DNA of 64,000 bases from an uncultured Candidatus Saccharibacteria bacterium (GTDB taxonomy: Bacteria; Patescibacteriota; Minisyncoccia; Phycocordibacterales; CAIZLB01). Positions 20,959-63,536 of this stretch are shown in pieces (position 1 is the stretch's first letter; each line of letters begins with the position of its first letter). Both the position numbers and the translations under genes were made by a program. A model generated the notes under the pieces. The model was not told the origin of the DNA. It did not search any database and saw only the letters and a program-made list of their open reading frames with translations. The stretch lies in assembly GCA_964368945.1 (NCBI GenBank), contig CAYJDM010000004.1, positions 8,577 through 72,576 of the forward strand, in the 5' to 3' direction.

Positions 20959-21393
20959 TTAAGACTGAAACTCTACTTCGAATGGATACATTCCCATTCC
21001 GCACGATCCCTTAAGTGAACCAATTTTCCCACTGCCAATATCTATATCTGTTGATCCTGATTGGGGTAGTGATTTGGTTATATCCAAACTTGGAATACGG
21101 ACTGAGGATGAGCAATCAAAAGTCCCTTTTGTATTGAATCGAATGATTGTCGGTATTCCTGCCTTAGCAATACTCTTTCGTGGTTGATACCCGCCTCTAG
21201 CGGTTATCTCAATAATCTGTTTTCCATCTACAACACTGACATTGTTTGCATTTATAACTTGCCCAGTATCACCACCGTCTCGTGTGAATATGAAAGCTCC
21301 CCCGATGAGAACTACCGCCACAATAATTGAAATAATAGTTGCTTTCATAACTGGAATTATACTAGAAATTAAACACTGGCGGTATGACCCCAA
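20959..21393 (-). CDS. cupredoxin-like copper-binding protein
   Basis: N-terminal TM helix. Cupredoxin_1-like core (IEITARGGYQPRKSIAKAGIPTIIRFNTKG...GSCGMGMYPFEVEF) with a C-terminal CxxxxM copper motif. It is the last gene of the copper operon. Confidence 0.6.
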   Translation of the reverse strand: MGSYRQCLISSIIPVMKATIISIIVAVVLIGGAFIFTRDGGDTGQVINANNVSVVDGKQIIEITARGGYQPRKSIAKAGIPTIIRFNTKGTFDCSSSVRIPSLDITKSLPQSGSTDIDIGSGKIGSLKGSCGMGMYPFEVEFQS

Positions 21394-22393
21394 TTACTAC
21401 CAGGCTATTAATAAGGTTGAAGAGCGCAAACATGATAACAATCAGTCCTGCTGTCTTGAAGAAGATTCCTGCCTTTGAACTTTTTTGAATACTGAATGAG
21501 CTGAAGCTAATGAGAGCCAGAACTGGCAACGTACCAAGTGCGAACGCAAACATCGTTAGTCCTCCAGTGAGAAAACTTCCTGTGGTAAGTGTGTAGAGTT
21601 GCATGGATTGTGTGAAGCCACATGGCAAGAAGAATGTCGCCACACCAACAAGAAGCGGAGTAAGAGTGTGGTTGAATTTCGACACACCGTGAGCATGCTT
21701 AGCGATAAACTTCGGCATTGACGGCTGAAGTTTTTTTGCCCAATGAAAAGTATCAAGGAGATTGATACCTAGAATAAGCATGACGATGCCGATGATTAGA
21801 CTCAGGATAAATGTTGCCGAGGTGTTAAGTGTGAATGCTGATCCGATAGTACCTATTACTCCACCGAGTATAAAGAATGATGCAATACGGCCACCATGGA
21901 ACATGAGTTGAGGTTTTATCTTGTCACCTTCTTTCGCAAACGTAGCAGACATCGAGAGAACCAATCCACCGACAACTGCCATACAGGTTGAGAGTGAAGC
22001 AATGATACCTATCACGAATGCTGTGCCATAGGTTACATTTCCAGCACTCACAAGATTTACTATTCCCATTTTCTGTAGCACCACAAAGAGTACTGCAAAG
22101 CCGAGAGCAATCGGGACCGCAATCCTGAAGTCTCCCCATTTGGCATTATGCTGTTGTTTTTCAACTGAAACACTATAGCCATGGGATTTTAAAGGAATAG
22201 TAAGTTCTAGAGCGATCTGTTCCAGTGTCTTATCACCAAAATCACCAATAACTTCTACTGAATGATTCTTGAGACTCGATTTGACATGGGTGATATTTGG
22301 CAGATCACTAAGCTCGCTTTCTGTCATGAGCACACAAGCGTTGCAGTGCATACCGTGTACATGAAAGGTATATTTTTGTGTTTGTGTAGTCAT
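21362..22393 (-). CDS. HMA-domain fused to a CcdA/DsbD_2-like multi-pass membrane protein
   Basis: N-terminal heavy-metal-associated motif GMHCNAC. A polytopic membrane domain follows with conserved Cys in two helices (LSTCMAVVGG and FFLPCGFTQS). Confidence 0.55.
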   Translation of the reverse strand: MTTQTQKYTFHVHGMHCNACVLMTESELSDLPNITHVKSSLKNHSVEVIGDFGDKTLEQIALELTIPLKSHGYSVSVEKQQHNAKWGDFRIAVPIALGFAVLFVVLQKMGIVNLVSAGNVTYGTAFVIGIIASLSTCMAVVGGLVLSMSATFAKEGDKIKPQLMFHGGRIASFFILGGVIGTIGSAFTLNTSATFILSLIIGIVMLILGINLLDTFHWAKKLQPSMPKFIAKHAHGVSKFNHTLTPLLVGVATFFLPCGFTQSMQLYTLTTGSFLTGGLTMFAFALGTLPVLALISFSSFSIQKSSKAGIFFKTAGLIVIMFALFNLINSLVVIGVIPPVFNF

Positions 22394-22398
22394 GATAA

Positions 22399-24678
22399 TT
22401 ATAATTTTTTAGCTTTAATGCGAAGCGAGTTCGATACGACCGATACAGACGACATCGCCATAGCAAATCCCGCAAAGATTGGGTTGAGTAGCCAACCAAA
22501 AATCGGATAAAATAAACCAGCAGCAAGCGGAATTCCAACAATATTGTAGATAAATGCCCAGAAGAGGTTCTGCTTAATTCCTCTCATAGTGATTCGTGAC
22601 AACTTGATAGCTTTTACCAGTTTAGAGATATCACCATGAAGCAGTGTTATACCCGCAGATTCGATAGCGACATCTGTTCCTGTACCCATAGCAATACCAA
22701 CATTGGCTTGTGCGAGAGCGGGAGCGTCGTTTACTCCATCTCCTGCCATGGCCACTATTCTTCCCTGATCCTGAAGTGCTTTGACTTTATTCATCTTGTC
22801 TTCGGGCAATACATGAGCCATTACTTCGTCAATACCAACTTGAGAGGCGATGTATTTTGCGGTCTTCTCATCATCACCTGTAAGCATAATCACTTTTATA
22901 CCCAATTTATGGAGGCTTGCGATAGCATCTTTTGATTCTTTCTTCACTTCATCAGCTACCATAACAAAACCAAGAAACGTATCTTTGGTACTCATAAGCA
23001 CTGGAGTTTTCCCTTGAGCTGTGTATTTTTCTAACTGCTTTTGATCAAAAGAAACCCCAAGCACTTCAATCAATTTTGCATTACCGACAAAATATTCTTT
23101 TCCTTCAATTACCCCCTTGAGACCCTTTCCTTGAATGATTGAAAAATCCGACGCTGTTTTTAACGATATATTTTTACTTTTTGCATACTGCGTAATAGCG
23201 TGCGCGATTGGATGCTCTGATTTATTTTCAAGGGAAGCAATTATACCTATGAGAGATTCGTCACTTAAATCCGATTTATTGTGTATATCAACTACAGACG
23301 GCTTGCCGATAGTAATGGTTCCTGTTTTATCTACCACTACAGTATCTGCCTTGTGCAAATGTTCTAGGGAAGCTGCGTCTTTGATGAGGATTCCATTTCG
23401 TGCCCCTTTACCTACACCAACAATGATTGCTGTGGGAGTTGCAAGACCGAGTGCACATGGACAAGCGATAACAAGAACACTTACAAACGATAGAATGCCT
23501 AGTGATAATGCTTGCGAGAATCCAATAAATTGTGAACCAACTGAAAGCCAGACAACAAGAGAAACAAAAGCAATGATAAGCACTATTGGCACAAATATAC
23601 CCGACACTCTATCTGCAAGGGCTTCTATCGGAGCCTTACTGCCTTGTGCATCTTCAACCATTTTAATAATTTGGGATAGGAGTGTTTCTTTGCCGACCTT
23701 TTTGGCTTCGAATACAAATGAACCGTTGGTATTAATTGTTCCTGCGACGACAGAATCACCAACATTTTTTTCGACAGGAATTGGCTCGCCAGTAATCATT
23801 GATTCGTCAATAAATGAACCACCTTCAATAATCGAGCCATCAACAGGTATTTTACTGCCGGGCTTTATCACGATTTTATCACCGTGCACCACTTCATCGA
23901 TTTTCACCTCCACTTCGTTTCCCTTTCGAATAACAAGAGCTGTCTTTGACTGAAGATTCAATAATTTTTCAATAGCATCACCTGTCTTTTTCTTTGATCG
24001 TGCTTCAAGATATTTACCGAGAGTTATAAAACCAATGACGACAATGGTGACATCAAAATATGTATACTCGGGAACACGTAGTAGCACTCCAAGTGATGGT
24101 GAAAGTGTAACCAAAATACTGTAGGTATACGCAACAAGCGTGCCGAGACCAATAAGTGTATCCATATTAGCGACTCTGTGCTTAATGAATCTTGTCACTC
24201 CAAGCAGATATGGTTTACCTACCCAGAACAATGCCACAGTTGCCAAGACCATAGAAATGGTATTAAAAAGAGCCATCGGAATCGGTAGATTCGGCATCCA
24301 TGTAGTTGTCCGAGCAAGAATGTCCCACATCATAAGAACAAACACCACCAGTGTAATGGGTATGATAAACTCAGTTTTATTTTTGAGTTCATCAAGTTCA
24401 TTTTCTTTGGGGGCTGTATGATTATGTTCAGCATTAACCTGATTTTCTCCCATGACAAAGGAGTATCCTAATTCGCTTATTTCCTTATTCATTACATCAA
24501 TTGAGACACGGCTTTCGTCATAATCAATTTTTGCCTTTTCATTTCCATAATTTACAGAAACAGAATTAATATATGGCACACTCGAAAGTTTTTTGGTGAT
24601 AATCGAAGCACAGCTGGCACAATGCATTCCTTTCACTTTTAAGATTTGTGTAGTCATGATGATTATATGTTGTACCAA
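22399..24678 (-). CDS. copA: copper-translocating P1B-type ATPase
   Basis: N-terminal HMA motif GMHCASCAS, membrane CPC motif ([11 protein letters not shown]), phosphorylation site DKTGTIT, and hinge [10 protein letters not shown]. Confidence 0.9.
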
Positions 24679-25223
24679 GTAGTTCTAAGACCCTTGAGTG
24701 TCTGTAAGCCATTTGAAAGAAATGCTTCGACAGCATCCGCATTATTCAAAACTTCAGCTCGACTTGATTTTGATCTTGTCTCTTTTGTCATAACTATCCC
24801 TGCTTCATGGTGAGCAATAATGGCATTAAGAAAACGTAGATCAAATGTATCGCCCGCAGGTCCAAGATTTGCTACGATTGGATCTCTCACTGTTTTAGTG
24901 TCTCCATACCAGTCTTTCTTCCAAGCATATAGTTCAGCAATAGTTTTTGGTTCATCATTTAGGATATTTTGTGAGAGAGTCTTCATCTCAGGACGAACAG
25001 TATTTTTTCCGAGTTGCTCAGCCAAAAGCATCGCTCCACGATGATGAGATATCATCGCATTTACATATCGCAGATCAAAAGTCCTATCAGCCTGACCGAG
25101 GCTCATCGTATTTTTCTCATACATAGAAACTTTGTATTCGGGAGTGAGGTAATATCCAAAGCTAACACCTAACACCGCACCAACTACCATAAGACCGAAT
25201 GCTAAATATATTGATATTTTCAT
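24663..25223 (-). CDS. DUF305 family protein (copper-resistance associated)
   Basis: Signal/TM N-terminus. Two DUF305 repeats ([16 protein letters not shown] and [16 protein letters not shown]). Confidence 0.65.
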
Positions 25224-25224
25224 T

Positions 25225-25500
25225 TTATTTTCTTTTTAGACGATATACTTTGATAATTTCTTCTGTAGCTTTGGCTGCTTTTCCTTCCTTGATCTGGTTT
25301 ACAAGACAATGACCAAGGTGATGCTCAAGAAGTTTGTCTTCCACATTAGAAATGCCCTGCTTTACCGCAGAGGCTTGAGTAATAACATCAATGCAATACG
25401 CACCTTTTTCAATCATATCTTGAAGACCCCGAACCTGACCCTCGATTATCTTAAGACGCCGAACTAATTTTTCTTTATCTGTTTTCATACTACTCATCAT
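25225..25500 (-). CDS. csoR: CsoR/RcnR-family copper-sensing transcriptional repressor
   Basis: LKIIEGQVRGLQDMIEKGAYCIDVITQ...HHLGHC: DUF156 fold with the C-H-C metal ligands. Confidence 0.75.
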   Translation of the reverse strand: MMSSMKTDKEKLVRRLKIIEGQVRGLQDMIEKGAYCIDVITQASAVKQGISNVEDKLLEHHLGHCLVNQIKEGKAAKATEEIIKVYRLKRK

Positions 25501-25518
25501 ATACCCCCTAGGGGGTAT
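25501..25518. promoter_or_regulatory. CsoR operator-like perfect palindrome ATACCCCCTAGGGGGTAT
   Basis: 18-bp perfect GC-rich inverted repeat of the TACCC-N-GGGTA type. It lies between a TATAAT -10 (rc of 25533-25538) and the csoR start codon. Confidence 0.5.
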
Positions 25519-25564
25519 ATGTCAACAACACAATTATACCCAGATTCCCATTTCAATAATCTGA

Positions 25565-26803
25565 CTATTTCTTAATTCTTTTAGACGGTGGCACATAATC
25601 CGTCTCCAGATACCAATATCTGTACCTCTTCGGTCTGTCTGGATAATCAAAGAATCGAGTTTCTGGAGTACTGTTCTGTACTCGCTTGAGGCTTGGACCA
25701 TCAACCTTTCCTTTCTTGATATATTCAGCTTCTATCTTCTTCCATCGCTCCACTGGATACCCGTCCTCGTCGTCAAACCACATGCTGAAATTCTGACGCT
25801 CGTGTTCTGGAAAGTAATTGATATGTCCCATACCCCACATCGGAGCGGATATCTCAAAACTCTTCGCTGTCTTTCCGCCGACACGGATCGGTTCCATATG
25901 CTTTTCCTCCATAAAATCATCGATGCCGACACATGACATGTCCAAGAGATACTCACGAGAGAATACCGTCCAGAGATCATGGTTTCTTGGATTAGGCAGA
26001 CCTCGTTCTACGTTCTTGATTGCCTTAGCATCTGGATACTTCGCAGACCACAATATACGATTCCTATCATCAAGAAGTGGGTACGCCTTGAATATGCCAG
26101 ACATCTCGTCATGCTTGATTGCCTTATATAGACGAATCAGTATTGACCTTGGATCAAGTAAGTTTCCCAGAACGACGATGTTGGTTGTCTCATCCCCGAT
26201 GGAGAGAAGCTCTCCCATGAACCACTCGTAAAGCAGGTCAACCTTAGCTTGATCGGTAAACGAGGTTACGTCTTCGATGTCGTCACAGATAATGAGGTCG
26301 GGTCGGTGGTCACGATATTTGAGCCCTCGGATATTTTGATTTGCCCCGATACACATGATCTTCGCTCCGTACTTTGGAATCTCAATCGTGTACGCACCCC
26401 AGTCTTCCTTGGTCGCTTGGAACGGACCAAGATCGCTCTTGAGCAGTTCATTTTCTTCTAGCTCCTGCTTGATGTTGTCGAAGTGGGATTGGGACTGGAC
26501 TCTGGTTTTAGAAACGATCAACACGAACTTCTTCTGGTGCTTTCCGAGGATACTCCACAGAGCATTAGAAAGGTTCAGGATGGTTGATTTTCCTGAACCT
26601 CTAAATGCCATGAACACGTTAAGCTTGTGTTGGTATGACTCGGTAATGCGGAACATCTCCTTATGGAACCAAGCGAACTCATACTTCAAATGCCTCCGAA
26701 GATAGATACTGCAAAATGCCTCGTGATTTTGATACACGAGTGCGGTTCGCACGGCGGTATCATTGATGACCGCCTGTATTATTTCTGGAGATAGTTTTTT
26801 CAT
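25565..26803 (-). CDS. phage terminase large subunit
   Basis: Walker A in the ATPase domain (AFRGSGKST) and a C-terminal RNaseH-like nuclease region. The overall ~410-aa architecture fits a terminase large subunit. Confidence 0.75.
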   Translation of the reverse strand: MKKLSPEIIQAVINDTAVRTALVYQNHEAFCSIYLRRHLKYEFAWFHKEMFRITESYQHKLNVFMAFRGSGKSTILNLSNALWSILGKHQKKFVLIVSKTRVQSQSHFDNIKQELEENELLKSDLGPFQATKEDWGAYTIEIPKYGAKIMCIGANQNIRGLKYRDHRPDLIICDDIEDVTSFTDQAKVDLLYEWFMGELLSIGDETTNIVVLGNLLDPRSILIRLYKAIKHDEMSGIFKAYPLLDDRNRILWSAKYPDAKAIKNVERGLPNPRNHDLWTVFSREYLLDMSCVGIDDFMEEKHMEPIRVGGKTAKSFEISAPMWGMGHINYFPEHERQNFSMWFDDEDGYPVERWKKIEAEYIKKGKVDGPSLKRVQNSTPETRFFDYPDRPKRYRYWYLETDYVPPSKRIKK

Positions 26804-27186
26804 TTGAAAAGTTTGAGTGCGTCCTTGAGAATTTCCTTTTGTTGAGCATTCAGCTCAGTTTTCTTTTGCACCTTTCGTATCAGGTCTCTCTTGTCCTCAG
26901 ACATGAAGCGATGGTGGTTGTTCTTGAGCCACAGAGCAATCGCCTGATATTTCTTCTCTCTGATGAGAGCAATGAGATGAGCTTCGGACATATCGTTTAT
27001 GTTCTCCACGCCATCGACCTTGGCGTTATCAACGTTTGCCTTGAAGTCTTCGTCTTCATTGCACCAGCGGTAGAACGTGGCTCGTGAGATTCCACCTTTC
27101 TTGCATGCCACTTCCACAATCGGAACGGTACGCAGATGCTCCAGCAGAACTTCCTTCTGCTTTTTTATCTTCAGATCTACTGCCAT
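26800..27186 (-). CDS. phage terminase small subunit-like HTH protein
   Basis: 128 aa with HTH (GGISRATFYRWCNED). It overlaps and lies immediately upstream of the large-subunit gene. Confidence 0.5.
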   Translation of the reverse strand: MAVDLKIKKQKEVLLEHLRTVPIVEVACKKGGISRATFYRWCNEDEDFKANVDNAKVDGVENINDMSEAHLIALIREKKYQAIALWLKNNHHRFMSEDKRDLIRKVQKKTELNAQQKEILKDALKLFK

Positions 27187-27188
27187 GA

Positions 27189-28511
27189 CTAGCTTATTTT
27201 CTTACGCTTCTTGCCAGTCTCTTTCTCCCAGCGATTCATGATGACTTCTGCATAGACGTGAGACTTTTCCATGATGAAGCAACGACGACCCATCTTCACT
27301 GATGCAATGAGTGTGCTTCCACTTCCTCCAAATGGTTCGAGGATGAGGTCGTCTCTCTTTGTAAGGACTTTGAGATACGGTACGAGGAGTTCGATCGGCT
27401 TCGTACCGAATATAATCTCCTGTCCAGAAGACTTCTTGTCTGCGGCGGTATGCGAGATGAAGTCCGTGGGACAAATTTTCTTTCCTTTCTCGTATGGCTC
27501 GAAGTGCGGATGTCCTGACGTTGCGAAGATGGCATTCTCGTACTCGTTTTGAAACAATCCTTCTTCTGGTTCGAGGTTTAGATCTACTTCTCCCGAAGTA
27601 CCGACAAGGGCGATATCAGTCTTGTTGAAGAACTTGTTTGAAGCTGAGAATCCCTGCATCCGATTTGGCACATGCCACGTTATCGTATTGCGATATTTCC
27701 AGTGAACTTCGAGTGCGTTCCAGATGGTGCGAAGGTTCTTCGGATTCTCGAAGATGATTATCGAGAAGTCAGGTTTTTGCACCTTAGCGACGTTTGCCAT
27801 CCAGAGATCTGAAAAGTTCTCAGGCAACACATCTGTTTCCAGATAGCGACGATTCTTCTTTGAACCGAATCCGACAGTTGGACCATCCTTTCCTCGACCT
27901 TTACCTTTGAGATAATCGAGGATATACGGAGGGTCAGTTAGCACCATGTCCGCTTTGTTTTCTCCCATGAGTTTGAGCATATCTGCCTCGACGGTCGAGT
28001 CACCAATCATCAATCGTGAGCCGTCGAGATCGTATACTTCGCCTTTCTTTGCATCGACTGTGATATCAAGCTTTTCGAGTTCCTTTTGGAGATCAAACTG
28101 TTCCTCGTTCTTTTCCATTGGGAAGATATCGTCAATATCCTCAGACGTGAATCCGATATCGAGGAGCATCGAGCTGTCGAACTCGGCGAGCATATCAAGA
28201 TCAAACTCTCCTTGGTTTCGATTGAGTCTGAGATTGAGTTCTGCTTCTTTTTCTGGTGTGAGATTCACGAACACGACTGGCATATTCTTGTATCCCAACT
28301 CTTTGCACGCTTCCACACGGAAATGACCTCCAACGATGACGTTCATTCTTTCCTCGTGCGTGTTCACGATTATCGGATCGACATTGCCGAACCGATTGAT
28401 ACTTTCCTTGAGCTGTTTCTTTTGCTCGTCCGTCCACTTGCGTGGGTTCTTGTCGTTTGCGACGAGACTGTCGATTGAGACGTACTCAATCTTTAGATTT
28501 TCTTTGTTCAT
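27189..28511 (-). CDS. ParB-like nuclease domain fused to DNA (N6-adenine/N4-cytosine) methyltransferase
   Basis: N-terminal ParB/Srx motif (NPRKW...GGHFRVEA). Methyltransferase motif IV DPPY (VLTDPPYI) and motif I FGGSGST near the C-terminus. This is a typical phage arrangement next to terminases. Confidence 0.75.
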   Translation of the reverse strand: MNKENLKIEYVSIDSLVANDKNPRKWTDEQKKQLKESINRFGNVDPIIVNTHEERMNVIVGGHFRVEACKELGYKNMPVVFVNLTPEKEAELNLRLNRNQGEFDLDMLAEFDSSMLLDIGFTSEDIDDIFPMEKNEEQFDLQKELEKLDITVDAKKGEVYDLDGSRLMIGDSTVEADMLKLMGENKADMVLTDPPYILDYLKGKGRGKDGPTVGFGSKKNRRYLETDVLPENFSDLWMANVAKVQKPDFSIIIFENPKNLRTIWNALEVHWKYRNTITWHVPNRMQGFSASNKFFNKTDIALVGTSGEVDLNLEPEEGLFQNEYENAIFATSGHPHFEPYEKGKKICPTDFISHTAADKKSSGQEIIFGTKPIELLVPYLKVLTKRDDLILEPFGGSGSTLIASVKMGRRCFIMEKSHVYAEVIMNRWEKETGKKRKKIS

Positions 28512-29802: not shown

Positions 29803-30177
29803 AAGCCACTGTAGCGGTTTTAGCCTATTAATTTAATAATAGACGAAGAATCTTGAGTCGTGAGACAGAAGACTCCTCGCCATTGTGATCCAACCTTTCG
29901 GTCAGACCCATATACCCTTTCGGGTACACGACCGCTACAGTGACTCTGACGAGGAGTCTTCTATACTGTAGCGGTTTTATATTCCGACCATATCCTAAGG
30001 AAACTAAGCGTTTTCTAAGGGGTTAGGTCTTTGTTGTATGTGTACATGATAGCAAAAATCGAGCTATCTATCTAGACTCTAGCTTAGATTCGGAGCCTTG
30101 CGAAGCATCGGTTACCAACAGCTGAATTTGAAGACTATGCGGTATCTAAAAGGGCTCAATTTTAGTAAAATAGAAAT

Positions 30178-30777: not shown

Positions 30778-30867
30778 ACAACAGAGTTTAGAGGAGAAAA
30801 GTTACCAACTTAATGGGTCTAGGACGCTCTAGACTCCTAGAGCGATCAGCGTCATCAATGTAGTTGT

Positions 30868-32187
30868 ATGAAAATACAAAAACCGCTACAAGTGACTCCT
30901 GACGAGGTCGTACCAATTAAGTACTGTCTCTATGCTCGCAAATCAACGGAGCAAGAAGATAAGCAAGCATTATCAATAGAATCGCAGGTTAAAGAGATGA
31001 TAAGTCTCGCCGAGCGAGAGGGTTTAAAAATAGTCGAAATCAAGCGTGAATCGCACTCCTCTAAGGAGGTTGGGCAAAGACCGGTATATAACGAGCTGAT
31101 CAATGAAATCAGGCAAGGTAAATTCAACGGTATCCTGACATGGGCACCTGATCGCCTATCGAGAAATGCTGGTGATCTTGGATCGGTCGTAGACCTGATG
31201 GATCAGAAGCTTCTACACGAAATTCGGACTTATGGACAGAAGTTCACGAACAATCCAAATGAGAAGTTCTTGCTCATGATTCTCGGATCACAAGCAAAGC
31301 TTGAGAACGACAACAAGATGGTAAACGTGAAGCGAGGACTTCGAGCGAGATGTGAGATGGGCTTATGGCCATCAGTGCCTCCAACCGGATATCTGAGCCA
31401 TTCAGACAGGAACAAGAAGTGTGAGGTGGTGTTGGACGAACAAAGGAGTCATGTGATAAAGCTGATGTTTGAGAAGGTAGCCTATGATGGTTGGTCGGGA
31501 CGAAAGCTATTCAAATGGTTGGCTGAGGATATACGATTCAAGACCAAACACGGAAAGCCCCTGACACTGAGTAATGTGTATATCATTCTCAAAAGCACCT
31601 TCTACTACGGTGAATTTGAATATCCAAAAGAAAGCGGACAATGGTATGTCGGAAAGCACGAGCCGATAATCACCAAAGATTTATATAACCAAGTGCAAGA
31701 CAAGATAAATAATGATCATCTGACGCGGACTCAAGATAAAGAGTTCGCTTTTACCAAGATGATAACCTGCGGACTCTGTGGATCAGGCATAACCGCTGAC
31801 GAGAAATTCAAGAAGCTCAAAGATGGTACGACAAATCGCTACGTCTACTATGGATGCACGAAGTTTAAAGACAAGGACTGCCCTTGCGGGTACATCCGAG
31901 AGGAAGATCTAATTGAGCAACTAGCAATGGTTCTAGATACAATTTCGCTGGACGAGATCGGAATGAAAGACAGGATCAAGACTGAGATTGAATCACATAA
32001 TGAATTCCAAGAATCAGTACTGGGGCGAGAGGTCAAAGAGAAAGTGAAGATAAAGGAAGTAGACATCAGAAACTACGCAAAACACATACTAAGAAAAAGA
32101 CCGCTGTACGAAAAACGAGAACTATTAAGTCATCTGAGAAGCAAGTTGGTACTGAAAGAAAAGATACTCAGTGTGATCAAGAATTAA
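30868..32187 (+). CDS. large serine recombinase (resolvase/invertase-type catalytic domain plus recombinase domain and zinc ribbon)
   Basis: Catalytic YARKSTEQED serine motif near the N-terminus, a recombinase domain, and Cys-rich CGLCGS...YYGCTKFKDKDCPCGY. Confidence 0.8.
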   Translation: MKIQKPLQVTPDEVVPIKYCLYARKSTEQEDKQALSIESQVKEMISLAEREGLKIVEIKRESHSSKEVGQRPVYNELINEIRQGKFNGILTWAPDRLSRNAGDLGSVVDLMDQKLLHEIRTYGQKFTNNPNEKFLLMILGSQAKLENDNKMVNVKRGLRARCEMGLWPSVPPTGYLSHSDRNKKCEVVLDEQRSHVIKLMFEKVAYDGWSGRKLFKWLAEDIRFKTKHGKPLTLSNVYIILKSTFYYGEFEYPKESGQWYVGKHEPIITKDLYNQVQDKINNDHLTRTQDKEFAFTKMITCGLCGSGITADEKFKKLKDGTTNRYVYYGCTKFKDKDCPCGYIREEDLIEQLAMVLDTISLDEIGMKDRIKTEIESHNEFQESVLGREVKEKVKIKEVDIRNYAKHILRKRPLYEKRELLSHLRSKLVLKEKILSVIKN

Positions 32188-34730
32188 CGAAGCCTTCTCT
32201 GTAGACTTTCTTTGAGCTTACCAATTTCTTTCTTTGCAGCAGGCGCAATCTCAAACATCGAGACATCATTCGCCAAGAGCCATTCTATACACTCTTTTCT
32301 TCCAAGATTGATATCTCCAACATACTGTGACAATTCAATGGCAGTGTGTCTACTCAGACCGAGATTAATGAGGGATATTTGAGTCCTCTGCGAAACACCG
32401 AACTCAACCCACATGTTCAACTGTGGTACAGATTCTAGGAGTTCAGGGTGTTCGTTGCCAAGATAGTATTTGAGAATATCTATGTAACAAGAAGAATATT
32501 TTGCAAATTTGAATCTAACATACTCCTCAATATCGCTCATCGTATCTCGGATGATTTTGGAGAGCTTTCTACGTGGCTCTTTTCTGCCCCAATATGTGAT
32601 GTTGGATCTGATGATTCGTGCAAGTGGATATCCATTCATCCAGTTGATTACCAATATTGCATGGTACGGAGCAAGACCCTCATGATCACCCGAGAGAATC
32701 TTGCTTATCCTTTTAATGATCGCAACATAGTGACCTAGAGCCGCGTCTTCTGTGTCTGGTAAAACAGGAATGAGATTTTTGACATCCTTGTCATAGTTCT
32801 TGAAATACTCTAAAAGCTTTTGCTGGGCGACAGGGCTGATACCAGGGTTTCTGTAAACGATATCCTCAGGAACTTCTAAGGTTTCCTTTACCCTCGCACA
32901 CTCAGCCTCAAGCTCAGCTATGTAACTCGCTTCCAAAGGCTCTCCTTGAAGATTTTGATTTTTGAGAAACTTTGTAAAGTAGTAACTGAATGCGTATTCG
33001 AGATTGGGCTTGAACGATCCTTCTGAAGTGCCTTTTATGTAATCCAGAAGATCCTCTCGGCTTTCAGATATTTCAGCAATAGCTCTTTTTATAAAATGCT
33101 TTGTCTTTTCCCTGACAGGCTTATTATCCCATTCTTCAGGATCAATACAGACGATATTTCCTTGGAACTCTTTCTTTAAGCGACCTGCTCTACCCGCAAG
33201 GTTCCAGAAGTCAGACTCTGTCATCGGCAATCGATTACCTCTCTTTGGCTTCCTGATAAAGATAGACTTAGCAGGAAGATTCACACCCTCAAGCAGAGTT
33301 GAGGTGCAGACTAAGTATTTTATGTGACCCTCTGTATAGAGCCTCTCAATCTCTTTTCTGATAACCAACGGCATGTTGCCATAATGAAACGCAATCTTTC
33401 TCTTCAAGACCTTAGCTAGCAGATAGTCTGTATGTATCAACTTTTTGGTTAGGTCGATAAGCTCCTCTATTTCATCATCTTCAGTTTCCTGTGATTCACC
33501 AACAAGGTCAAAGAGTTTTTCTGACACATCTTCAGCGTCAGCCTGTCCGTTTACGTAAATCATGTTACCGCCATCTTCAGACCCAAGCATATGACAAAAC
33601 ATAGGGAGCTTATCTTTTTCTCCAAGAATATCCCTGGTGCTAAGCGTTCCAAGGTTTATAGAGTATGTCTTTAGGCAGAGATCAATACTCCACTGACGAG
33701 GATGTCCTGATGCTTGAGAGACCCACACAAGGTTCTGATTAACCGCAACGTACTCTGTGACGATTGTCGATTTTCTTTCAGGATTGGGTAAACCATCGAG
33801 GAGTATCTCTGGATTCTGTGAAAATGGACTACAGAACAGCATCTTAAGATCAGGTAAACGGCTGACCAGTTCCTCAATCTTTTGTTGTAGTAAAACACCT
33901 CTTCCTCCATCACCAATCTTATGAGCCTCATCAACGATAAGGAAATCAATTCGGTAGTCCTTGTTCTCGTTGAGAAACCAGTGCAATCTCTCTTGGGTGA
34001 AGATGAGAAGACTCGGCTTGCTTCCGTCTTCATCGTCAGGCAGTTGAGGTACAGAACTAAGATATACGGAGTGATTGTCGTTTTTAAAAAGCTGATCCGA
34101 AAAATCCTGCTCTACCTGATTAATCAACGCTCTTGTTGGCACAAGATATACAATATTCTTTGGATTTCCCAAATCGCTCAACTGCTCCAAAACAAAGGTA
34201 TTTAAAATAAAAGACTTTCCAGAAGATGTTGGGGCGGATGCACTTACATAACTAGAAGCGTGAGCTTTATCGTAAAAATCCTTTTGAAACTTATTAAGAT
34301 AAATTGGTTCATTAGTGTCTTTCGTGAACACGATATGTTCAACATCTCGTTGTGTATTTTCCATCTGGAATGGCAGAGGGATGTCACTCTCATAGTCAGC
34401 TGGCAAATGCTCTTTTTTGAGAGCAAGTTCTATGGCAGGTCTATTGGTGAGCTTGTGAAATATCACTGAGGATGCAACCCTCTGATTTTTAGTGGTATCA
34501 GGATGAGTAAGACAGCATTGTGCAATTCTCAAGGCGGCATCCTGACAGTCTGGATTATCTGAATGAGCCAGAGCACTCGCACACATCAAAAGATGATTCC
34601 AGTTCACAGAAGAAAATAGATCATCCTGCTGATTCAGGGCTGGAAAAAGCCTTGTTACTGAATATTTAATAACCTTCAATAGATCCCTTTGGAAACTAAC
34701 TAAATTGTATATTTTTTCAGGAAGGTTCAT
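32184..34730 (-). CDS. SF2 DExD/H helicase, candidate HamB-like defence helicase
   Basis: Motif I APTSSGKS, motif II VDEAHKI, motif VI AGRAGR. 848 aa. It overlaps the upstream partner gene by 14 nt. Confidence 0.6.
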   Translation of the reverse strand: MNLPEKIYNLVSFQRDLLKVIKYSVTRLFPALNQQDDLFSSVNWNHLLMCASALAHSDNPDCQDAALRIAQCCLTHPDTTKNQRVASSVIFHKLTNRPAIELALKKEHLPADYESDIPLPFQMENTQRDVEHIVFTKDTNEPIYLNKFQKDFYDKAHASSYVSASAPTSSGKSFILNTFVLEQLSDLGNPKNIVYLVPTRALINQVEQDFSDQLFKNDNHSVYLSSVPQLPDDEDGSKPSLLIFTQERLHWFLNENKDYRIDFLIVDEAHKIGDGGRGVLLQQKIEELVSRLPDLKMLFCSPFSQNPEILLDGLPNPERKSTIVTEYVAVNQNLVWVSQASGHPRQWSIDLCLKTYSINLGTLSTRDILGEKDKLPMFCHMLGSEDGGNMIYVNGQADAEDVSEKLFDLVGESQETEDDEIEELIDLTKKLIHTDYLLAKVLKRKIAFHYGNMPLVIRKEIERLYTEGHIKYLVCTSTLLEGVNLPAKSIFIRKPKRGNRLPMTESDFWNLAGRAGRLKKEFQGNIVCIDPEEWDNKPVREKTKHFIKRAIAEISESREDLLDYIKGTSEGSFKPNLEYAFSYYFTKFLKNQNLQGEPLEASYIAELEAECARVKETLEVPEDIVYRNPGISPVAQQKLLEYFKNYDKDVKNLIPVLPDTEDAALGHYVAIIKRISKILSGDHEGLAPYHAILVINWMNGYPLARIIRSNITYWGRKEPRRKLSKIIRDTMSDIEEYVRFKFAKYSSCYIDILKYYLGNEHPELLESVPQLNMWVEFGVSQRTQISLINLGLSRHTAIELSQYVGDINLGRKECIEWLLANDVSMFEIAPAAKKEIGKLKESLQRRLR

Positions 34731-35700
34731 AGCTTATTCCGAGTGCCTCTAAAAAATGCTTCCTAAATTCTTCTACTGAGGGAAAAGGCAGAAGAAACAC
34801 ATGGATATCAAATGTGTTCAAGTTTGTATGTTTGGAAATCTGACCTATCACGCTTGTTGACCATGCTTCAATTTCCGCTTGTATCTTCGCTTTGATTTGT
34901 TCCGTCGTTTCGCTATTTGCGACCGCAGGATACTTGTCGTAATCAAAACCTATAAGACAAACACCTTTGTAGTTAACCTGATTGTGAAGAGGGTCATCTT
35001 TATCAAGATATTTCAAAATCACTGTCCCAAGCCTTTCATCAATAACATCAAGATTGCCTCTGAGGAGCTGGAGATCTCTTTCAGCGGGAGCATCTTCTCC
35101 TCCGTCAGAGAGTAAGAACTCCTTGAGGCTTTCGAAACAACTTGAGATAGCACCACTCATATCCTTATGCAGTTTCGATTCTCCCCAATACAGAGAAAGG
35201 ATGTCCTGTCCGCTTTCGTTAGTCTCTACGGATACATGTATTCCATCAGCACCGTTTACATGAAGTTCTGAATTTGTTTTCAGGGGCATCTTACAAATCA
35301 GTTGCGGAAGTTTCAAAAATTCTTGTACAAGGATATAAAGAAGCATCTCACCACCTTCACCTGTCTTTTTTAAAGACGTAAACAATGCTTCGGCTTTCTT
35401 TACCAATTGTGTGGTCTTGGTAGAAGTATTGTGCTCACGATCATACTTTTGAGCCTCAGCAAATTCCTTTCTAGGAATAGCGTAATCGGCAACATGCCGT
35501 GCGATAAATCTTGCAAAATCTTTTGTCTGAGGTCTTCCGTTTCCATCTAAAGTAAGAAAGTAGCAGTGGGACACTGCTTTAGTATCTTTTAGATTTACAT
35601 GTGAAATAACCTCAGTTATGTAGCTGTTTATTTCCTGCTCACTGGTTCTAAGGAGTTCAGTGATAAGTTCTGCTAATGTTTTATTATCTTCTGTGTCCAT
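34717..35700 (-). CDS. candidate HamA-like (DUF1837-type) effector with PD-(D/E)xK-like residues
   Basis: 327 aa, translationally coupled to the helicase. D...ExK pattern (GADGIHVSVE...WGESKLHK). The size and gene order match Hachiman type I. Confidence 0.45.
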   Translation of the reverse strand: MDTEDNKTLAELITELLRTSEQEINSYITEVISHVNLKDTKAVSHCYFLTLDGNGRPQTKDFARFIARHVADYAIPRKEFAEAQKYDREHNTSTKTTQLVKKAEALFTSLKKTGEGGEMLLYILVQEFLKLPQLICKMPLKTNSELHVNGADGIHVSVETNESGQDILSLYWGESKLHKDMSGAISSCFESLKEFLLSDGGEDAPAERDLQLLRGNLDVIDERLGTVILKYLDKDDPLHNQVNYKGVCLIGFDYDKYPAVANSETTEQIKAKIQAEIEAWSTSVIGQISKHTNLNTFDIHVFLLPFPSVEEFRKHFLEALGISYEPS

Positions 35701-35701
35701 A

Positions 35702-35890
35702 TTAGTGGTTTATAAGCTTAAGGATGTCCGACTTCTTGTATCGACGATCCTTTCTTGTGCCAAATCGGATAGGCACTAGAATACCCTTCTTGTCCCAATT
35801 CCTTAGAGTATTTGGATGGCAGTTTAAAATCTCACAAGCTTGTTTAAGGCTTAAGATTTCGGGATATTGACTGTAATCGTTTTTAGTCAT
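35702..35890 (-). CDS. excisionase/MerR-family HTH DNA-binding protein
   Basis: 62 aa (LSLKQACEILNCHPNTLRNWDKKGILVPIRFGTRKDRRY), the Xis-type HTH_17 pattern. Confidence 0.55.
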   Translation of the reverse strand: MTKNDYSQYPEILSLKQACEILNCHPNTLRNWDKKGILVPIRFGTRKDRRYKKSDILKLINH

Positions 35891-35931
35891 ATCTTAGACT
35901 TAACATAAGTTAACAACAAAAGCAATCCTAC

Positions 35932-35981
35932 AGAAATCAAAAGACCACCCATGTAGGTGGTCTTTTGATTCTGGATACTGC
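35932..35981. terminator. palindromic hairpin AATCAAAAGACCACC-CATGT-AGGTGGTCTTTTGATT
   Basis: 15-bp perfect inverted repeat between the Xis-like gene and tRNA-Gln. It shares the AAATCAAAAGACC / GGTCTTTTGATT arms with the hairpin at 20650-20699. Confidence 0.45.
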
Positions 35982-36106
35982 ACTCAGCAGGTATGCAATT
36001 TACGGAATAGTATCGTGTGATTTGGGAAAGTTCGAGCCCATGACTGGTTCTCAAAACTCTTCCCCCTAAACAGCCATTTTAGGCGTTTAGGTAGGTCTCA
36101 CATAAC

Positions 36107-36177
36107 TGCTGGGAGATAGGGACTCGAACCCCAATTAAACGGACCAGAACCGTTTGTCCTACCATTAGACGATCTCC
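36107..36177 (-). tRNA. tRNA-Gln (anticodon CUG)
   Basis: Reverse complement folds as UGGGAGA-UC-GUCU-AAUGGUA-GGAC-A-AACGG-UUCUGGU-CCGUU-UAAU-UGGGG-UUCGAGU-CCCUA-UCUCCCA-G. U1-A72 and the CUG anticodon fit Gln. No encoded CCA. Confidence 0.85.
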
Positions 36178-36321
36178 CAATAGGCAAAAAGATAACACTT
36201 TTGGCCCTAAAAATCAACCCGGACCAGGGCCGAAGAGGCGCTCCATTCTTGCATTGCATGCCCCGAGGAGTATGCTGTTCTCGGAACACAGACCCACAAA
36301 CCCAAACCCCCGCCCTTTACA

Positions 36322-37239
36322 ATGAACACCTACCCCCACCCGACGAATATCGGCCTAGGCGGCATGCTCGGCTGGACTTGGACACAGTTCGCCGTTTTGT
36401 ATGCCATCTGCCTAATCATACTGGCCATTTTCTTTGGAGGCCGAGTGATACTGAGAAAAATCAAGAAGCGTAAATCCGACAAAGCAGCCCGAATCCCGCA
36501 CTGGCATGAGCCAACTGAGAAAACGATCCATATCGATTTTCAATATATGCATGCGACATACATGATCCCGACTGACTGGACCTGTCGCATATCGATATTC
36601 GCTTGCAGGCATTGCGACAAGGCAAAGCTTGAACAAGCCCTCATCCGAAATATCACCCGCGCGATGGGACGGTACTGCGAATTCACATTCGTCGCATCGC
36701 CTCCCAGACTCCGTCTGAACATATGCGAAAGCAATATCAACCATGAGCGTATGCCCTGCCCTACGGGAGACCATGATCTGCATGTCCGCGACTTCAGCGT
36801 GACGAGCCATGCGCCCGACCCTATTGAGCCCTTGCTTCGAAAGATGGCTGCGGATTCTTTTACGCAAGGCCTCGAGAATGCGCAGCGCGAAAAAAAGGAA
36901 AAAGAAGATGCCGAAAGGAAATCCCTCTCCGATGCACGTACGGCAGAAATATATGCAGCCGCGCAGAGATATGCGGAGCTGCAGAGCCGCGCAGTGGAAT
37001 TGGCCCGCGTCTCCAGGGAACTCCAATCGAAGTCCGAAGCGGCTCGCGCCCATGCAGACGAAATGTCTGCTCGCGCCCGCCTTTCTGCCGCTGAGGCCGA
37101 GGAGCGTAAAAAGGCGGATGATTGGCTGGATGAAAATCCAGCATGCGAAGACGATGAATCGTATTATTCGCTTGGCGACGATGCCAGGCAAGAATACGGC
37201 CTTGGATACGATATGGGCCACGATCCCGATGACCCATGA
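36322..37239 (+). CDS. hypothetical membrane / coiled-coil protein
   Basis: N-terminal TM helix and a C-terminal charged coiled coil. Followed by a hairpin plus T-run terminator at ~37242-37290. The overlapping minus ORF (36412-37323) was rejected. Confidence 0.4.
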   Translation: MNTYPHPTNIGLGGMLGWTWTQFAVLYAICLIILAIFFGGRVILRKIKKRKSDKAARIPHWHEPTEKTIHIDFQYMHATYMIPTDWTCRISIFACRHCDKAKLEQALIRNITRAMGRYCEFTFVASPPRLRLNICESNINHERMPCPTGDHDLHVRDFSVTSHAPDPIEPLLRKMAADSFTQGLENAQREKKEKEDAERKSLSDARTAEIYAAAQRYAELQSRAVELARVSRELQSKSEAARAHADEMSARARLSAAEAEERKKADDWLDENPACEDDESYYSLGDDARQEYGLGYDMGHDPDDP

Positions 37240-62240: not shown

Positions 62241-62354
62241 AAGCAGATTATATGCTCGAATGTGTTTTTGAAAATATTGACAAAAGAAAAGCCGCCGGTA
62301 ATTGCCTACCGGCGGCCGCAATCTACGTACTACAGATTCATTCTGAGCCACACA

Positions 62355-63238: not shown

Positions 63239-63536
63239 GTCCATGTTTTATAACATATCCTGGGCCTAAAATAAAGGCCGCCCAGGCCAGACCCCCGATC
63301 CCCCTTCATTTACTGGCGCAAGACAAAAGCGCGCCTTTCCGGCACGCCTTTGTCTTTGGTCTCTGGCTACTTTGTTGCGGGGCCAAGAATTGCACTTGGT
63401 CATCAAGGTTATGAGCCTTGCATGCAACTGTTACACCTCCCCGCAATTGCATTATCTTTGCTGAATATTACTACGATCGGCCCCAGGACTTGCGCCACTG
63501 AGACCGAAAGCGTTTTACTATATTGACCGAATTCGC

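What the first reader, a model, noticed from the sequence alone, without database searches (positions are those of the whole stretch)
32184..35890. Candidate Hachiman-like anti-phage system (HamA-like PD-(D/E)xK protein plus HamB-like SF2 helicase) with an adjacent Xis/MerR-type HTH gene
A 327-aa protein with a D...ExK nuclease-like pattern is translationally coupled (14-nt overlap) to an 848-aa SF2 helicase. The helicase carries motifs I, II (DEAH-like VDEAH) and VI (AGRAGR). Gene order, sizes and coupling match the two-gene Hachiman architecture.

The pair sits in a mobile island between a serine recombinase and a 62-aa excisionase-family HTH protein. That small protein could be either the island Xis or a dedicated regulator.

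An operational defence island, or a divergent variant of the system, may be new for this lineage.
Basis: partly seen in the sequence, partly recalled or inferred. Interest (0 to 1): 0.7.

Follow-up and report, generated by a model that had tools for sequence, protein, structure and literature searches.

The report
Hachiman defence cassette in CPR prophage
This is an ordinary, intact type I Hachiman anti-phage system (HamA nuclease plus HamB helicase); the modest extra is a small DNA-binding gene in front of it that looks like the cassette's own switch, not the island's excisionase.

Summary
Three co-oriented genes lie on the minus strand: a 62-aa HTH (35702-35890), HamA (34717-35700) and HamB (32184-34730). 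A convergent large serine recombinase (LSR) sits on one side and tRNA-Gln on the other.

The host is a Paceibacteria-like CPR bacterium. A published survey already lists Hachiman in CPR, so "new for the lineage" fails.

HTH-hamA-hamB is a precise 3.75-kb presence/absence cassette. It lies between the integrase gene and the tRNA-Gln-side end of a prophage-like island. In related loci that slot holds many other defence genes.

The HTH is probably not an Xis. It is absent from cargo-free LSR loci. Its homologues sit 2-7 nt upstream of unrelated defence genes (type I, IIG and III RM, DrmD) and once are fused to HsdM. All share a 17-nt motif 7 nt upstream of the start codon. It is best read as a portable controller. 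This is a new member of a known kind, of low to moderate interest.

The parts
34717..35700 (-). hamA: DUF1837/HamA PD-(D/E)xK effector nuclease, 327 aa. Candidate catalytic residues are D152 (35245-35247) and E174-x-K176 (35173-35181).
32184..34730 (-). hamB: Ski2-like SF2 sensor helicase, 848 aa. Motif I 34212-34232, motif II VDEAH 33921-33935, motif VI AGRAGR 33180-33197. Overlaps hamA by 14 nt.
   Evidence: PADLOC HamB1 PDLC00186 E=9.6e-287, profile positions 6-860 of 864. Pfam DEAD, ResIII and Helicase_C. PDB 9wh1_B 2.5e-62 and 8vx9_B HamB. Housekeeping helicase equivalogs score far below cut-off.
35702..35890 (-). 62-aa HTH_17/MerR-superfamily DNA-binding protein, the first gene of the cassette and translationally coupled to hamA. 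Inferred to be a controller of the operon.
   Evidence: Pfam HTH_17 1.6e-10 and MerR_1 1.7e-09; PADLOC mad1 1.4e-10. Sub-threshold HspR, BldC and IS607 HTH matches. Homologues lead other defence operons. dN/dS 0.023.
35898..35914 (-). Conserved 17-nt motif GTTAACTTATGTTAAGT, 7 nt upstream of the HTH ATG. Inferred to be an extended -10 promoter and/or operator, possibly giving a leaderless mRNA.
   Evidence: Present once in each of 13 loci that carry an HTH-family gene, always upstream of that gene and nowhere else in 130 loci. It is the only match in the window even with 2 mismatches, against 0.02 expected. Alignment of upstream regions.
32188..35930 (.). The 3.75-kb HTH-hamA-hamB cassette, defined as a presence/absence polymorphism relative to syntenic loci.
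   Evidence: L057 and L059 align with the window on both sides, but there the LSR stop codon is followed directly by the terminator hairpin.
35935..35970 (.). Perfect 15-bp inverted repeat with flanking A and T runs. It looks like a bidirectional intrinsic terminator that separates the tRNA-Gln/non-coding stretch from the cassette (and from the LSR in cargo-free loci).
   Evidence: Inverted repeat I20. Sequence. Conserved, with changes on both arms, in L057, L059 and L067.
30868..32187 (+). Large serine recombinase (phage-type integrase), convergent with hamB. Carries the YARKST motif that holds the expected nucleophile serine.
   Evidence: Pfam Resolvase, Recombinase and Zn_ribbon_recom. phrog_95 integrase 5.3e-64. 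142 relatives in metagenomes, most with a convergent tRNA downstream.
36108..36179 (-). tRNA-Gln (CTG), the landmark that bounds the cargo slot and the probable target region of the integrase.
   Evidence: ARAGORN and Rfam. A tRNA-Gln occupies the same position in L003, L005, L037, L038 and many other LSR loci.
35930..36107 (-). Conserved non-coding stretch of about 170 nt between tRNA-Gln and the cassette. It includes a near-invariant block of about 45 nt. It is a candidate att site or tRNA-linked small RNA and is not part of the cassette.
   Evidence: No Rfam family. No covariation.
30795..30867 (+). Conserved 75-nt block upstream of the LSR start codon, with the dyad GACGCTCTAGACTCCTAGAGCGATCAGCGTC. 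Similarity between loci ends at its outer edge.

Best explanation
Window 32184-35890 encodes an intact type I Hachiman anti-phage system.

Mechanism (by homology with the characterised E. coli systems, PMC12278908 and PMC11914072). HamB is a Ski2-like helicase that holds the HamA PD-(D/E)xK nuclease in check while the complex surveys intact DNA. A free 3' single-stranded end, as produced by phage replication or DNA damage, enters the helicase. ATP hydrolysis then remodels HamB and activates HamA, which degrades phage and host DNA (abortive infection).

Shown here: family membership, fold, intact catalytic and helicase motifs, operon structure and strong purifying selection.

Inferred here: the mechanism itself.

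Context. The two genes are the distal part of a three-gene cassette, HTH-hamA-hamB. The cassette is cargo in the slot between the integrase gene (a large serine recombinase) and the tRNA-Gln-side end of a prophage-like island in a Paceibacteria-like CPR bacterium. In related elements that slot is a hotspot for alternative defence cargo.

The HTH. The 62-aa HTH is most likely a transcriptional controller of the cassette. It would bind the conserved 17-nt element that overlaps its own promoter and so gate expression of a potentially self-toxic nuclease-helicase, much as C proteins do for restriction-modification systems. This role is inferred from comparative context, not shown.
For: Identity:
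- PADLOC HamA1 E=7.8e-121 and HamB1 E=9.6e-287, both full length.
- Pfam PF08878 205.9 bits, plus DEAD, ResIII and Helicase_C.
- More than 1000 HamA homologues.
- D152/E174/K176 are invariant. Helicase motifs I, Ia, II, V and VI are present.
- dN/dS against L078 is 0.023 (HTH), 0.031 (HamA) and 0.035 (HamB).

Cassette and context:
- L057 and L059 are syntenic on both sides but lack 32188-35930.
- The same cassette sits behind LSRs of 100, 90 and 79% identity.
- It recurs in L127, L129 and L130.
- The slot between LSR and tRNA carries 73 cargo clusters in other loci. These include a KAP NTPase, Mrr+nSTAND3, a Shedu SduA_C protein, Mrr, HNH, DUF6602+SMODS, AAA_15/21 and type I RM.
- Phage character: phrog_95 integrase, phrog_38 terminase and phrog_498 methyltransferase, plus three IMG/VR contigs.

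HTH role:
- Every HTH-family member in 130 loci lies 2-7 nt upstream of, or overlaps the start of, a gene matched by a PADLOC defence model. These are HamA, DrmD, type I REase, type IIG RM, type I MTase and type III MTase. In L123 the HTH is fused to HsdM.
- All but the fused copy share the 17-nt motif at a fixed distance from the ATG.
- PADLOC mad1 gives 1.4e-10.
- Published precedent for upstream modules that repress Hachiman: PezAT, PMC13064477.
Against: - There is no experimental evidence of defence for this copy, and the host is uncultured.
- The simple sigma-70 scan found no promoter upstream of the HTH. The promoter/operator reading of the 17-nt motif therefore rests only on conservation and spacing.
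- Hachiman relatives at 79% and 73% HamA identity (L005, L008) lack the HTH, so it is not required for the system.
- HTH_17 and PHROG excisionase families do match the HTH weakly.
Confidence: 0.85

Rival explanations
1. The 62-aa HTH is the recombination directionality factor (Xis) of the island. It works with the serine recombinase to excise the element and is only incidentally co-transcribed with hamAB.
For: - Pfam HTH_17 is the excisionase-type fold.
- There are weak PHROG matches to 'excisionase and transcriptional regulator' (phrog_66, 1.2e-06) and to excisionases.
- The gene lies next to the tRNA-Gln-side border of the island.
- It co-occurs with the LSR in the window, L003, L078, L127 and L129.
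Against: - LSR loci that are syntenic but cargo-free (L057, L059), and loci with other cargo (L037, L038-L043), keep the LSR without any such HTH in the slot.
- Homologues at 52-67% identity sit kilobases from the LSR as the first gene of RM or DrmD operons. One is fused to HsdM.
- L130 carries HTH-hamAB without a visible adjacent LSR, though the contig ends inside hamB.
- From general knowledge, known serine-integrase directionality factors (for example Bxb1 gp47 and phiC31 gp3) are not HTH_17 proteins.
- Constitutive co-expression of an Xis with a defence operon would destabilise the island.
Confidence: 0.08
2. The HTH is a functional third subunit or an antitoxin-like neutraliser of this Hachiman clade. 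It would tether or inhibit HamAB at the protein level and not act as a transcription factor.
For: - Tight translational coupling to hamA: a 1-nt gap in the window and an 11-nt overlap in L003.
- It is conserved with hamAB down to 69% HamA identity.
- It is under the same strength of purifying selection as HamA and HamB.
- The HsdM fusion in L123 shows the domain can act in cis with an enzyme.
Against: - The same HTH family heads mechanistically unrelated systems: type I, IIG and III RM and a DrmD-like SNF2 helicase. That fits a generic role better than a Hachiman-specific partner.
- A conserved DNA motif travels with the gene.
- Close Hachiman relatives lack it.
Confidence: 0.07
3. The locus is a decaying or inactive remnant, or the helicase is a housekeeping Hel308/Lhr/RecQ-type enzyme next to an unrelated nuclease.
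For: - The surrounding prophage looks degraded: the terminase-like ORF covers only part of the profile, and metal-resistance genes are interspersed.
- PDB and NCBIfam searches give partial matches to Ski2, Hel308 and Pol theta helicases.
Against: - The ORFs are full length, with complete coverage of the HamA and HamB profiles.
- All catalytic and helicase motifs are intact.
- dN/dS is 0.02-0.035.
- Hel308 scores 63 bits against a cut-off of 1200. The ligase-associated DEXH helicase scores 45.6 against 850.
- hamA-hamB pairing is conserved in all 28 genome loci found.
Confidence: 0.02

Closest known systems
Type I Hachiman (HamA/HamB), as characterised in E. coli ECOR31 (PDB 8VX9/8VXY; PMC12278908) and in the E. 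coli system of PDB 8ZUE (PMC11914072)
   Same: - A two-gene hamA->hamB operon with overlapping genes.
- HamA has DUF1837 with D...ExK.
- HamB is a Ski2-like SF2 helicase with DExH and motif VI, matched over the full profile including the region N-terminal to the helicase core.
- The HamA fold matches the solved chains.
   Different: - Sequence identity to the solved HamA chains is only 12-14%.
- The host is a CPR bacterium.
- A small HTH gene is translationally coupled upstream.
- The system is cargo of a serine-integrase prophage-like island.
Pez-Ham of Streptococcus thermophilus (PMC13064477)
   Same: Hachiman preceded by an extra module that represses its expression and balances fitness cost against defence, according to the paper's abstract. 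This is conceptually the same role as proposed here for the HTH.
   Different: The upstream module there is a PezAT toxin-antitoxin pair. Here it is a single 62-aa HTH_17/MerR-like protein. No regulation has been shown here.
Controller (C) proteins of restriction-modification systems
   Same: A small HTH encoded as the first gene of a defence operon, tightly coupled to the downstream gene. A conserved DNA element lies at its own promoter, spaced from the ATG in a way that is compatible with a leaderless transcript. Members of this HTH family do head RM operons in related loci.
   Different: From general knowledge, C proteins are Xre-type HTH_3 proteins that bind palindromic C-boxes. This protein is HTH_17/MerR-like, and the motif looks like two direct half-sites (GTTAAC...GTTAAG). 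This is a functional analogy only, not family membership.
mad1 of the MADS defence system (PADLOC PDLC04133) and BldC-type minimal MerR-like regulators
   Same: The closest profile matches are mad1 at 1.4e-10 and BldC family at 4.9e-04, below its cut-off. Like mad1, it is a gene of about 60 aa in a defence system.
   Different: No other MADS genes are adjacent. BldC, HspR and IS607 matches are all far below their curated cut-offs.
Defence hotspots of temperate phages and satellites (P2/P4-type hotspots)
   Same: A fixed position in a family of integrative elements, next to the integrase and the attachment-site end, holds mutually exclusive and highly diverse defence cargo.
   Different: The integrase here is a large serine recombinase and the hosts are CPR bacteria. 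The element ends (att sites) were not defined here.

Membership tests
Hachiman type I | HamA protein carrying the DUF1837/HamA domain (PF08878) | tested here: met
   Pfam PF08878 at 205.9 bits (cut-off 25), covering profile positions 1-230 of 230. PADLOC HamA1 E=7.8e-121.
Hachiman type I | HamA PD-(D/E)xK active site (E138/K140 in E. coli ECOR31 HamA; mutating them abolishes defence, PMC12278908) | tested here: met
   D152, E174 and K176 are invariant in 64 homologues. In the AF2 model, D152 precedes strand 153-160 and E174/K176 lie in strand 166-177. Equivalence to E138/K140 is inferred from the motif and fold, not from a residue-level alignment.
Hachiman type I | HamA fold like solved HamA | tested here: met
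Hachiman type I | HamB Ski2-like SF2 helicase with Walker A, DExH and motif VI | tested here: met
   PADLOC HamB1 E=9.6e-287. Pfam DEAD and Helicase_C. PTSSGKS, VDEAH and AGRAGR are present. PDB HamB chain 8vx9_B, and 9wh1_B (deposited under another name but paired with a HamA-domain chain), are matched.
Hachiman type I | HamB N-terminal helical domain that binds HamA (PMC12278908) | tested here: inconclusive
   The HamB1 profile match starts at residue 3, so the region N-terminal to the helicase core is homologous. No complex model was made, so the interface was not tested.
Hachiman type I | Adjacent, co-oriented hamA-hamB genes | tested here: met
   14-nt overlap. The same pairing is seen in all related loci.
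Hachiman type I | Anti-phage activity through DNA degradation | not testable with these tools
   Needs heterologous expression and phage challenge.
Excisionase / recombination directionality factor of the island | Co-inheritance with its cognate recombinase across related elements | tested here: not met
   The HTH is absent from the slot in L057, L059, L037 and L038-L043, all of which keep the LSR at 84-94% identity. Homologues occur as leaders of other defence operons.
Excisionase / recombination directionality factor of the island | Excisionase-type HTH_17 DNA-binding domain | tested here: met
   Pfam HTH_17 1.6e-10. Weak PHROG excisionase matches. The fold alone does not discriminate between roles.
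RM controller (C) protein family | Xre-type (HTH_3) fold and palindromic C-box operator | tested here: not met
   Pfam assigns HTH_17 and MerR_1, not HTH_3. The conserved motif is not a clear palindrome. This is a functional analogy only.
MADS system (mad1) | mad1 accompanied by the other mad genes | tested here: not met
   The mad1 profile matches at 1.4e-10, but the neighbours are hamA and hamB. The only other mad-like match is a weak mad2 hit (1.8e-05) to the ParB-methyltransferase 7 kb away.
Large serine recombinase (phage-type integrase) | Resolvase catalytic domain + Recombinase domain + zinc ribbon | tested here: met
   All three Pfam domains are present. phrog_95 integrase 5.3e-64. A convergent tRNA lies downstream in most relatives. 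Recombination activity and att sites were not tested.

The most novel reading that the evidence does not exclude
The 62-aa HTH and its 17-nt upstream element form a portable, self-contained expression-control module. The module is exchanged among mechanistically unrelated defence systems (Hachiman, type I, IIG and III RM, a DrmD-like SNF2 helicase) in phage-derived islands of CPR bacteria. It would be a MerR/Xis-fold functional analogue of RM C-proteins, letting toxic defence cassettes establish safely after transfer. A more speculative extension is that the conserved serine integrase and the near-invariant 45-nt block beside tRNA-Gln define a dedicated cargo-exchange site.
Probability: 0.4. 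Interest if true: 0.5.

Novelty: new member of a known kind. Interest (0 to 1): 0.3.

Why it matters
For Hachiman itself this adds little: it is one more intact member of a well-characterised family, in a phylum where surveys already record it at about 0.5-2% of genomes.

The context is more useful. It gives a clean natural example of a defence cassette as a precise presence/absence insertion, and of a defence hotspot in integrative elements of ultra-small CPR bacteria, whose mobile elements and phage biology are poorly known.

It also points to a small HTH with a conserved cis element that recurs in front of unrelated defence systems. That is a testable candidate for a general regulator of defence-gene expression.

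Tried and rejected
- phmmer of HamA against PDB sequences found nothing. A 64-sequence profile reached only 9wh1_A (2.6e-04) and 8zue_A (0.58), so E138/K140 of 8vx9_A could not be aligned by sequence. The fold search was used instead.
- NCBIfam has no model that matches HamA.
- A repeat search over 17-36.4 kb found no convincing direct repeats of tRNA-derived sequence that would mark island ends. That is expected for a serine integrase.
- The sigma-70 consensus scan found no promoter upstream of the HTH, and the terminator scan did not list the 35935-35970 hairpin.
- Rfam at a permissive E-value found only sub-threshold chance matches in 35650-36350 apart from the tRNA.
- RNAalifold on 16 copies of the 170-nt stretch gave a 4-bp hairpin with no covariation. 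The structured-RNA idea is therefore unsupported.
- Full-text searches returned no paper combining Patescibacteria, serine recombinase and prophage. Only one paper co-mentions Hachiman and Patescibacteria.
- I considered that the LSR is a resident host gene, because L057 is syntenic on both flanks. I set this aside because more divergent LSRs sit next to other tRNAs (Glu, Arg, Trp, Ile), because of the PHROG integrase and terminase matches, and because of the IMG/VR hits. The element's far end was not found.

Full report
**1. Observation**

- hamA is 34717-35700(-), 327 aa.
- hamB is 32184-34730(-), 848 aa, and overlaps hamA by 14 nt.
- The HTH gene is 35702-35890(-), 62 aa. One base separates its stop codon from the hamA ATG.
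- A 439-aa serine recombinase is at 30868-32187(+). It is convergent with hamB, and the two stop codons share the palindrome TTAA.

HamB carries PTSSGKS (motif I), VPTRAL (Ia), VDEAH (II), TSTLLEGVNLP (V) and AGRAGR (VI). HamA carries D152 and E174-S-K176.

The block lies at the edge of a low-GC region, about 0.38-0.47 from roughly 17 to 36 kb against 0.50-0.58 in the flanks.

**2. Identity of the two large genes**

- PADLOC profiles match over their whole length: HamA1 PDLC00163 at E = 7.8e-121 (positions 4-313 of 314) and HamB1 PDLC00186 at E = 9.6e-287 (6-860 of 864). Type II models score slightly lower.
- Pfam gives PF08878 HamA at 205.9 bits against a cut-off of 25. HamB gets DEAD, ResIII and Helicase_C.
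- The protein database holds more than 1000 HamA homologues, and all those listed carry PF08878.
- An AlphaFold2 model of HamA built from 64 homologues has mean pLDDT 90.7 and pTM 0.90.
- Foldseek finds one significant PDB match, 8zue_A, the HamA chain of a Hachiman cryo-EM structure (E = 7.7e-07).
- D152, E174 and K176 are invariant across the 64 homologues. In the model, D152 immediately precedes strand 153-160 and E174/K176 lie in strand 166-177. That is the usual PD-(D/E)xK arrangement.
- HamB's best solved relative is 9wh1_B (2.5e-62, residues 116-798). It is co-deposited with a HamA-domain chain. 8vx9_B HamB is also matched.
- The housekeeping reading fails. Hel308 scores 63 bits against a cut-off of 1200, and the ligase-associated DEXH helicase scores 45.6 against 850.
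- Between the window and L078, dN/dS is 0.023 for the HTH, 0.031 for HamA and 0.035 for HamB. All three genes are under strong purifying selection.

This is a bona fide, intact type I Hachiman.

**3. Mechanism (from the literature, inferred for this copy)**

In E. coli, HamAB is a heterodimer. HamB restrains HamA while the complex surveys intact dsDNA. Entry of a 3' ssDNA end into HamB triggers ATP hydrolysis and remodelling of the N-terminal helical domain. HamA is then activated and degrades phage and host DNA. HamA E138A/K140A and HamB D431A abolish defence (PMC12278908; see also PMC11914072). Nothing in the sequence here argues for a different mode of action.

**4. Lineage**

- The window's PrfB has its nearest named relatives, at 63-67% identity, in Candidatus Taylorbacteria, Parcubacteria and Paceibacterota.
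- Members of the recombinase's 90% cluster are named Candidatus Paceibacterota.
- The closest HamA-bearing genome, at 87%, is labelled Candidatus Saccharibacteria.

The host is therefore a Paceibacteria-like member of the CPR/Patescibacteria.

Hachiman in this phylum is not new. The Fig. 3D source data of the aquifer defensome survey list it in 0.59% of Paceibacteria MAGs, 1.06% of Saccharimonadia MAGs and 2.2% of JAEDAM01 MAGs (PMC12259885).

**5. The cassette is a precise presence/absence insertion**

- blastn shows that window 30795-36181 is one homologous block (79% identity) with L003/L009. Similarity stops at both ends.
- L057 is syntenic with the window on both sides: ParB-methyltransferase, a coiled-coil gene, the LOOT region and the LSR on the left, and the conserved non-coding stretch, tRNA-Gln, ftsE and prfB on the right. 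L059 aligns through the tRNA-Gln.
- In both loci the LSR stop codon is followed directly by the terminator hairpin. Window 32188-35930 (hamB, hamA, HTH and 45 nt upstream) is missing.
- The same three-gene cassette sits behind LSRs that are 100, 90 and 79% identical (window, L003, L078). Within it the HTH is 92-97%, HamA 87-97% and HamB 92-93% identical.
- It recurs in L127 and L129 with an LSR, and in L130 beside a small terminase and a ParB-methyltransferase.
- Hachiman relatives at 79% (L005) and 73% (L008) HamA identity lack the HTH.

**6. The setting is a prophage-like island with a defence hotspot**

- The LSR matches phage integrases (phrog_95, 5.3e-64). ORF 25565-26803 matches a terminase large subunit (phrog_38, 2.2e-33). 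ORF 27189-28511 is a phage-type ParB-methyltransferase (phrog_498, 7.2e-77).
- Metal-resistance genes are interspersed.
- A metagenome scan found 142 LSR relatives, of which 80 were kept. Three more lie on IMG/VR contigs.
- Where enough sequence follows the LSR, a convergent tRNA lies downstream. It is tRNA-Gln for most. For LSRs of 61-69% identity it is sometimes tRNA-Glu, -Arg, -Trp or -Ile. The gap ranges from 95 bp to 6.8 kb.
- The gap holds 73 unrelated cargo clusters, nearly all on the tRNA strand. They include a KAP NTPase, a metal-resistance cluster, type I RM, Mrr+nSTAND3, a Shedu SduA_C protein, Mrr, HNH, DUF6602+SMODS, AAA_15/21, DUF4238 and DUF5677.

Hachiman is therefore one of many alternative cargoes at an integrase-proximal hotspot. 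The island's far end and the att sites were not determined.

**7. The HTH**

Pfam assigns HTH_17 and MerR_1. PADLOC matches mad1 at 1.4e-10. NCBIfam gives only sub-threshold HspR, IS607 HTH and BldC matches.

An HMM of the family found 15 members in about 1.6 Mb of loci. Each lies 2-7 nt upstream of, or overlaps the start of, a large gene on the same strand. PADLOC identifies those genes as follows:
- HamA, in the Hachiman loci;
- DrmD (9.6e-215, L052);
- type I REase (4.7e-290, L053);
- type IIG RM (1.5e-137, L066);
- type I MTase (L067 and L105);
- type III MTase (L111).

In L123 the HTH is fused to the N-terminus of a type I MTase.

All except the fused copy carry the motif GTWAACTWRTGKTAAGT ending 7 nt before the ATG. 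The exact pattern occurs once in each of 13 HTH-bearing loci, always upstream of the HTH gene and nowhere else in 130 loci. L003, L004 and L009 carry a one-base variant. In the window it is the only match even with two mismatches, against 0.02 expected.

The spacing fits TGnTAAGTy as an extended -10, with transcription starting at or near the ATG. That reading is an inference. The two GTWAAC/GKTAAG half-sites lie about one helical turn apart.

Upstream ORFs of 26 other HamA loci are unrelated to this HTH. Some are HicA-like by their sequence, which I did not test with a profile.

Taken together, the HTH travels with defence cassettes, not with the recombinase. A controller role is the best reading. 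A published parallel is PezAT, which represses Hachiman expression in Streptococcus (PMC13064477).

**8. Verdict**

The claim of novelty for the lineage is not supported. Of the two HTH roles offered, the regulator is favoured over Xis.

This is a new member of a known kind. The modestly new elements are the HTH-led three-gene cassette, the recurrent HTH and motif module in front of unrelated defence systems, and the LSR/tRNA-Gln defence hotspot in CPR elements.

Noticed in passing
window 35930-36107 (- strand): A conserved non-coding stretch of about 170 nt lies between tRNA-Gln and the cassette. A block of about 45 nt (TACTATTCCGTAAATTGCATACCTGCTGAGnGCAGTATyCAGAA) is almost invariant, even in loci whose LSR is only 65% identical. 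There is no Rfam family and no covariation. It is a candidate integrase att site or a tRNA-linked small RNA.
   Followed up: partly
window 30795-30867: A 75-nt block just upstream of the LSR start codon is conserved in all LSR loci compared. It contains the dyad GACGCTCTAGACTCCTAGAGCGATCAGCGTC. Similarity between loci ends at its outer edge. It could be a regulatory site or an att site.
   Followed up: partly
L037-L123 (the slot between LSR and tRNA); window 32188-35930 is the equivalent slot: In related elements the slot between the serine integrase gene and the convergent tRNA holds 73 unrelated cargo clusters, most of them defence-like. Examples are a KAP NTPase, Mrr+nSTAND3, Shedu, HNH, SMODS, AAA_15/21 and type I RM. 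This is a defence hotspot in CPR integrative elements.
   Followed up: partly
L052:4504-4704, L053:4522-4725, L066:4156-4356, L067:4707-4910, L105:2312-2515, L111:6473-6679, L123:8134-9879: Homologues of the HTH (52-67% identity) are the first gene of DrmD-like, type I, type IIG and type III RM operons. In L123 the HTH is fused to HsdM. All except the fused copy share the same 17-nt upstream motif.
   Followed up: yes
window 29887-30029 (- strand): Rfam LOOT RNA (RF03000) match at 50.9 bits against a gathering score of 46.4. It lies between the coiled-coil gene and a 199-aa ORF inside the island. The region is conserved in L055, L057 and L059.
   Followed up: no
window 61325-61648 (- strand) and 63375-63445 (- strand): Group I intron match (RF00028, 53.8 bits against a gathering score of 50) overlapping ORF 61560-62351. 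A tRNA at 63375-63445 is found by Rfam but not by ARAGORN.
   Followed up: no
window 2861-18775 (- strand): A single ORF of 5304 aa. Most of it has GC 0.54-0.58 and an unusually strong GC skew, about -0.2 to -0.33. It was not annotated.
   Followed up: no
window 21362-28511: The low-GC island also carries a P-type ATPase with an HMA domain (22399-24678), a DsbD_2/HMA protein (21362-22393), a DUF305 protein (24663-25223), a terminase-large-subunit-like ORF (25565-26803) and a ParB-methyltransferase (27189-28511). This looks like a degraded prophage with metal-resistance cargo. A similar metal cluster fills the LSR slot in L037.
   Followed up: partly
window 36108-36179 versus L003:9521-9592: The window's tRNA-Gln has anticodon CTG and L003's has TTG. 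The anticodon stems differ on both strands, yet the downstream 170 nt are about 95% identical.
   Followed up: no
PDB 9wh1 (chains A and B): The best solved match to HamB (2.5e-62) is deposited as 'DNA polymerase theta (Helicase domain only)'. It is paired with a chain named 'HamA C-terminal domain-containing protein', so it appears to be a Hachiman complex under a misleading name.
   Followed up: no
L026-L028 and L035, about 170-190 nt upstream of hamA: Solirubrobacterales Hachiman loci have a 71-75-aa ORF upstream of hamA that looks HicA-like by its sequence. This was my reading of the sequence and was not tested with a profile. It may be another case of a small accessory module in front of Hachiman.
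   Followed up: no
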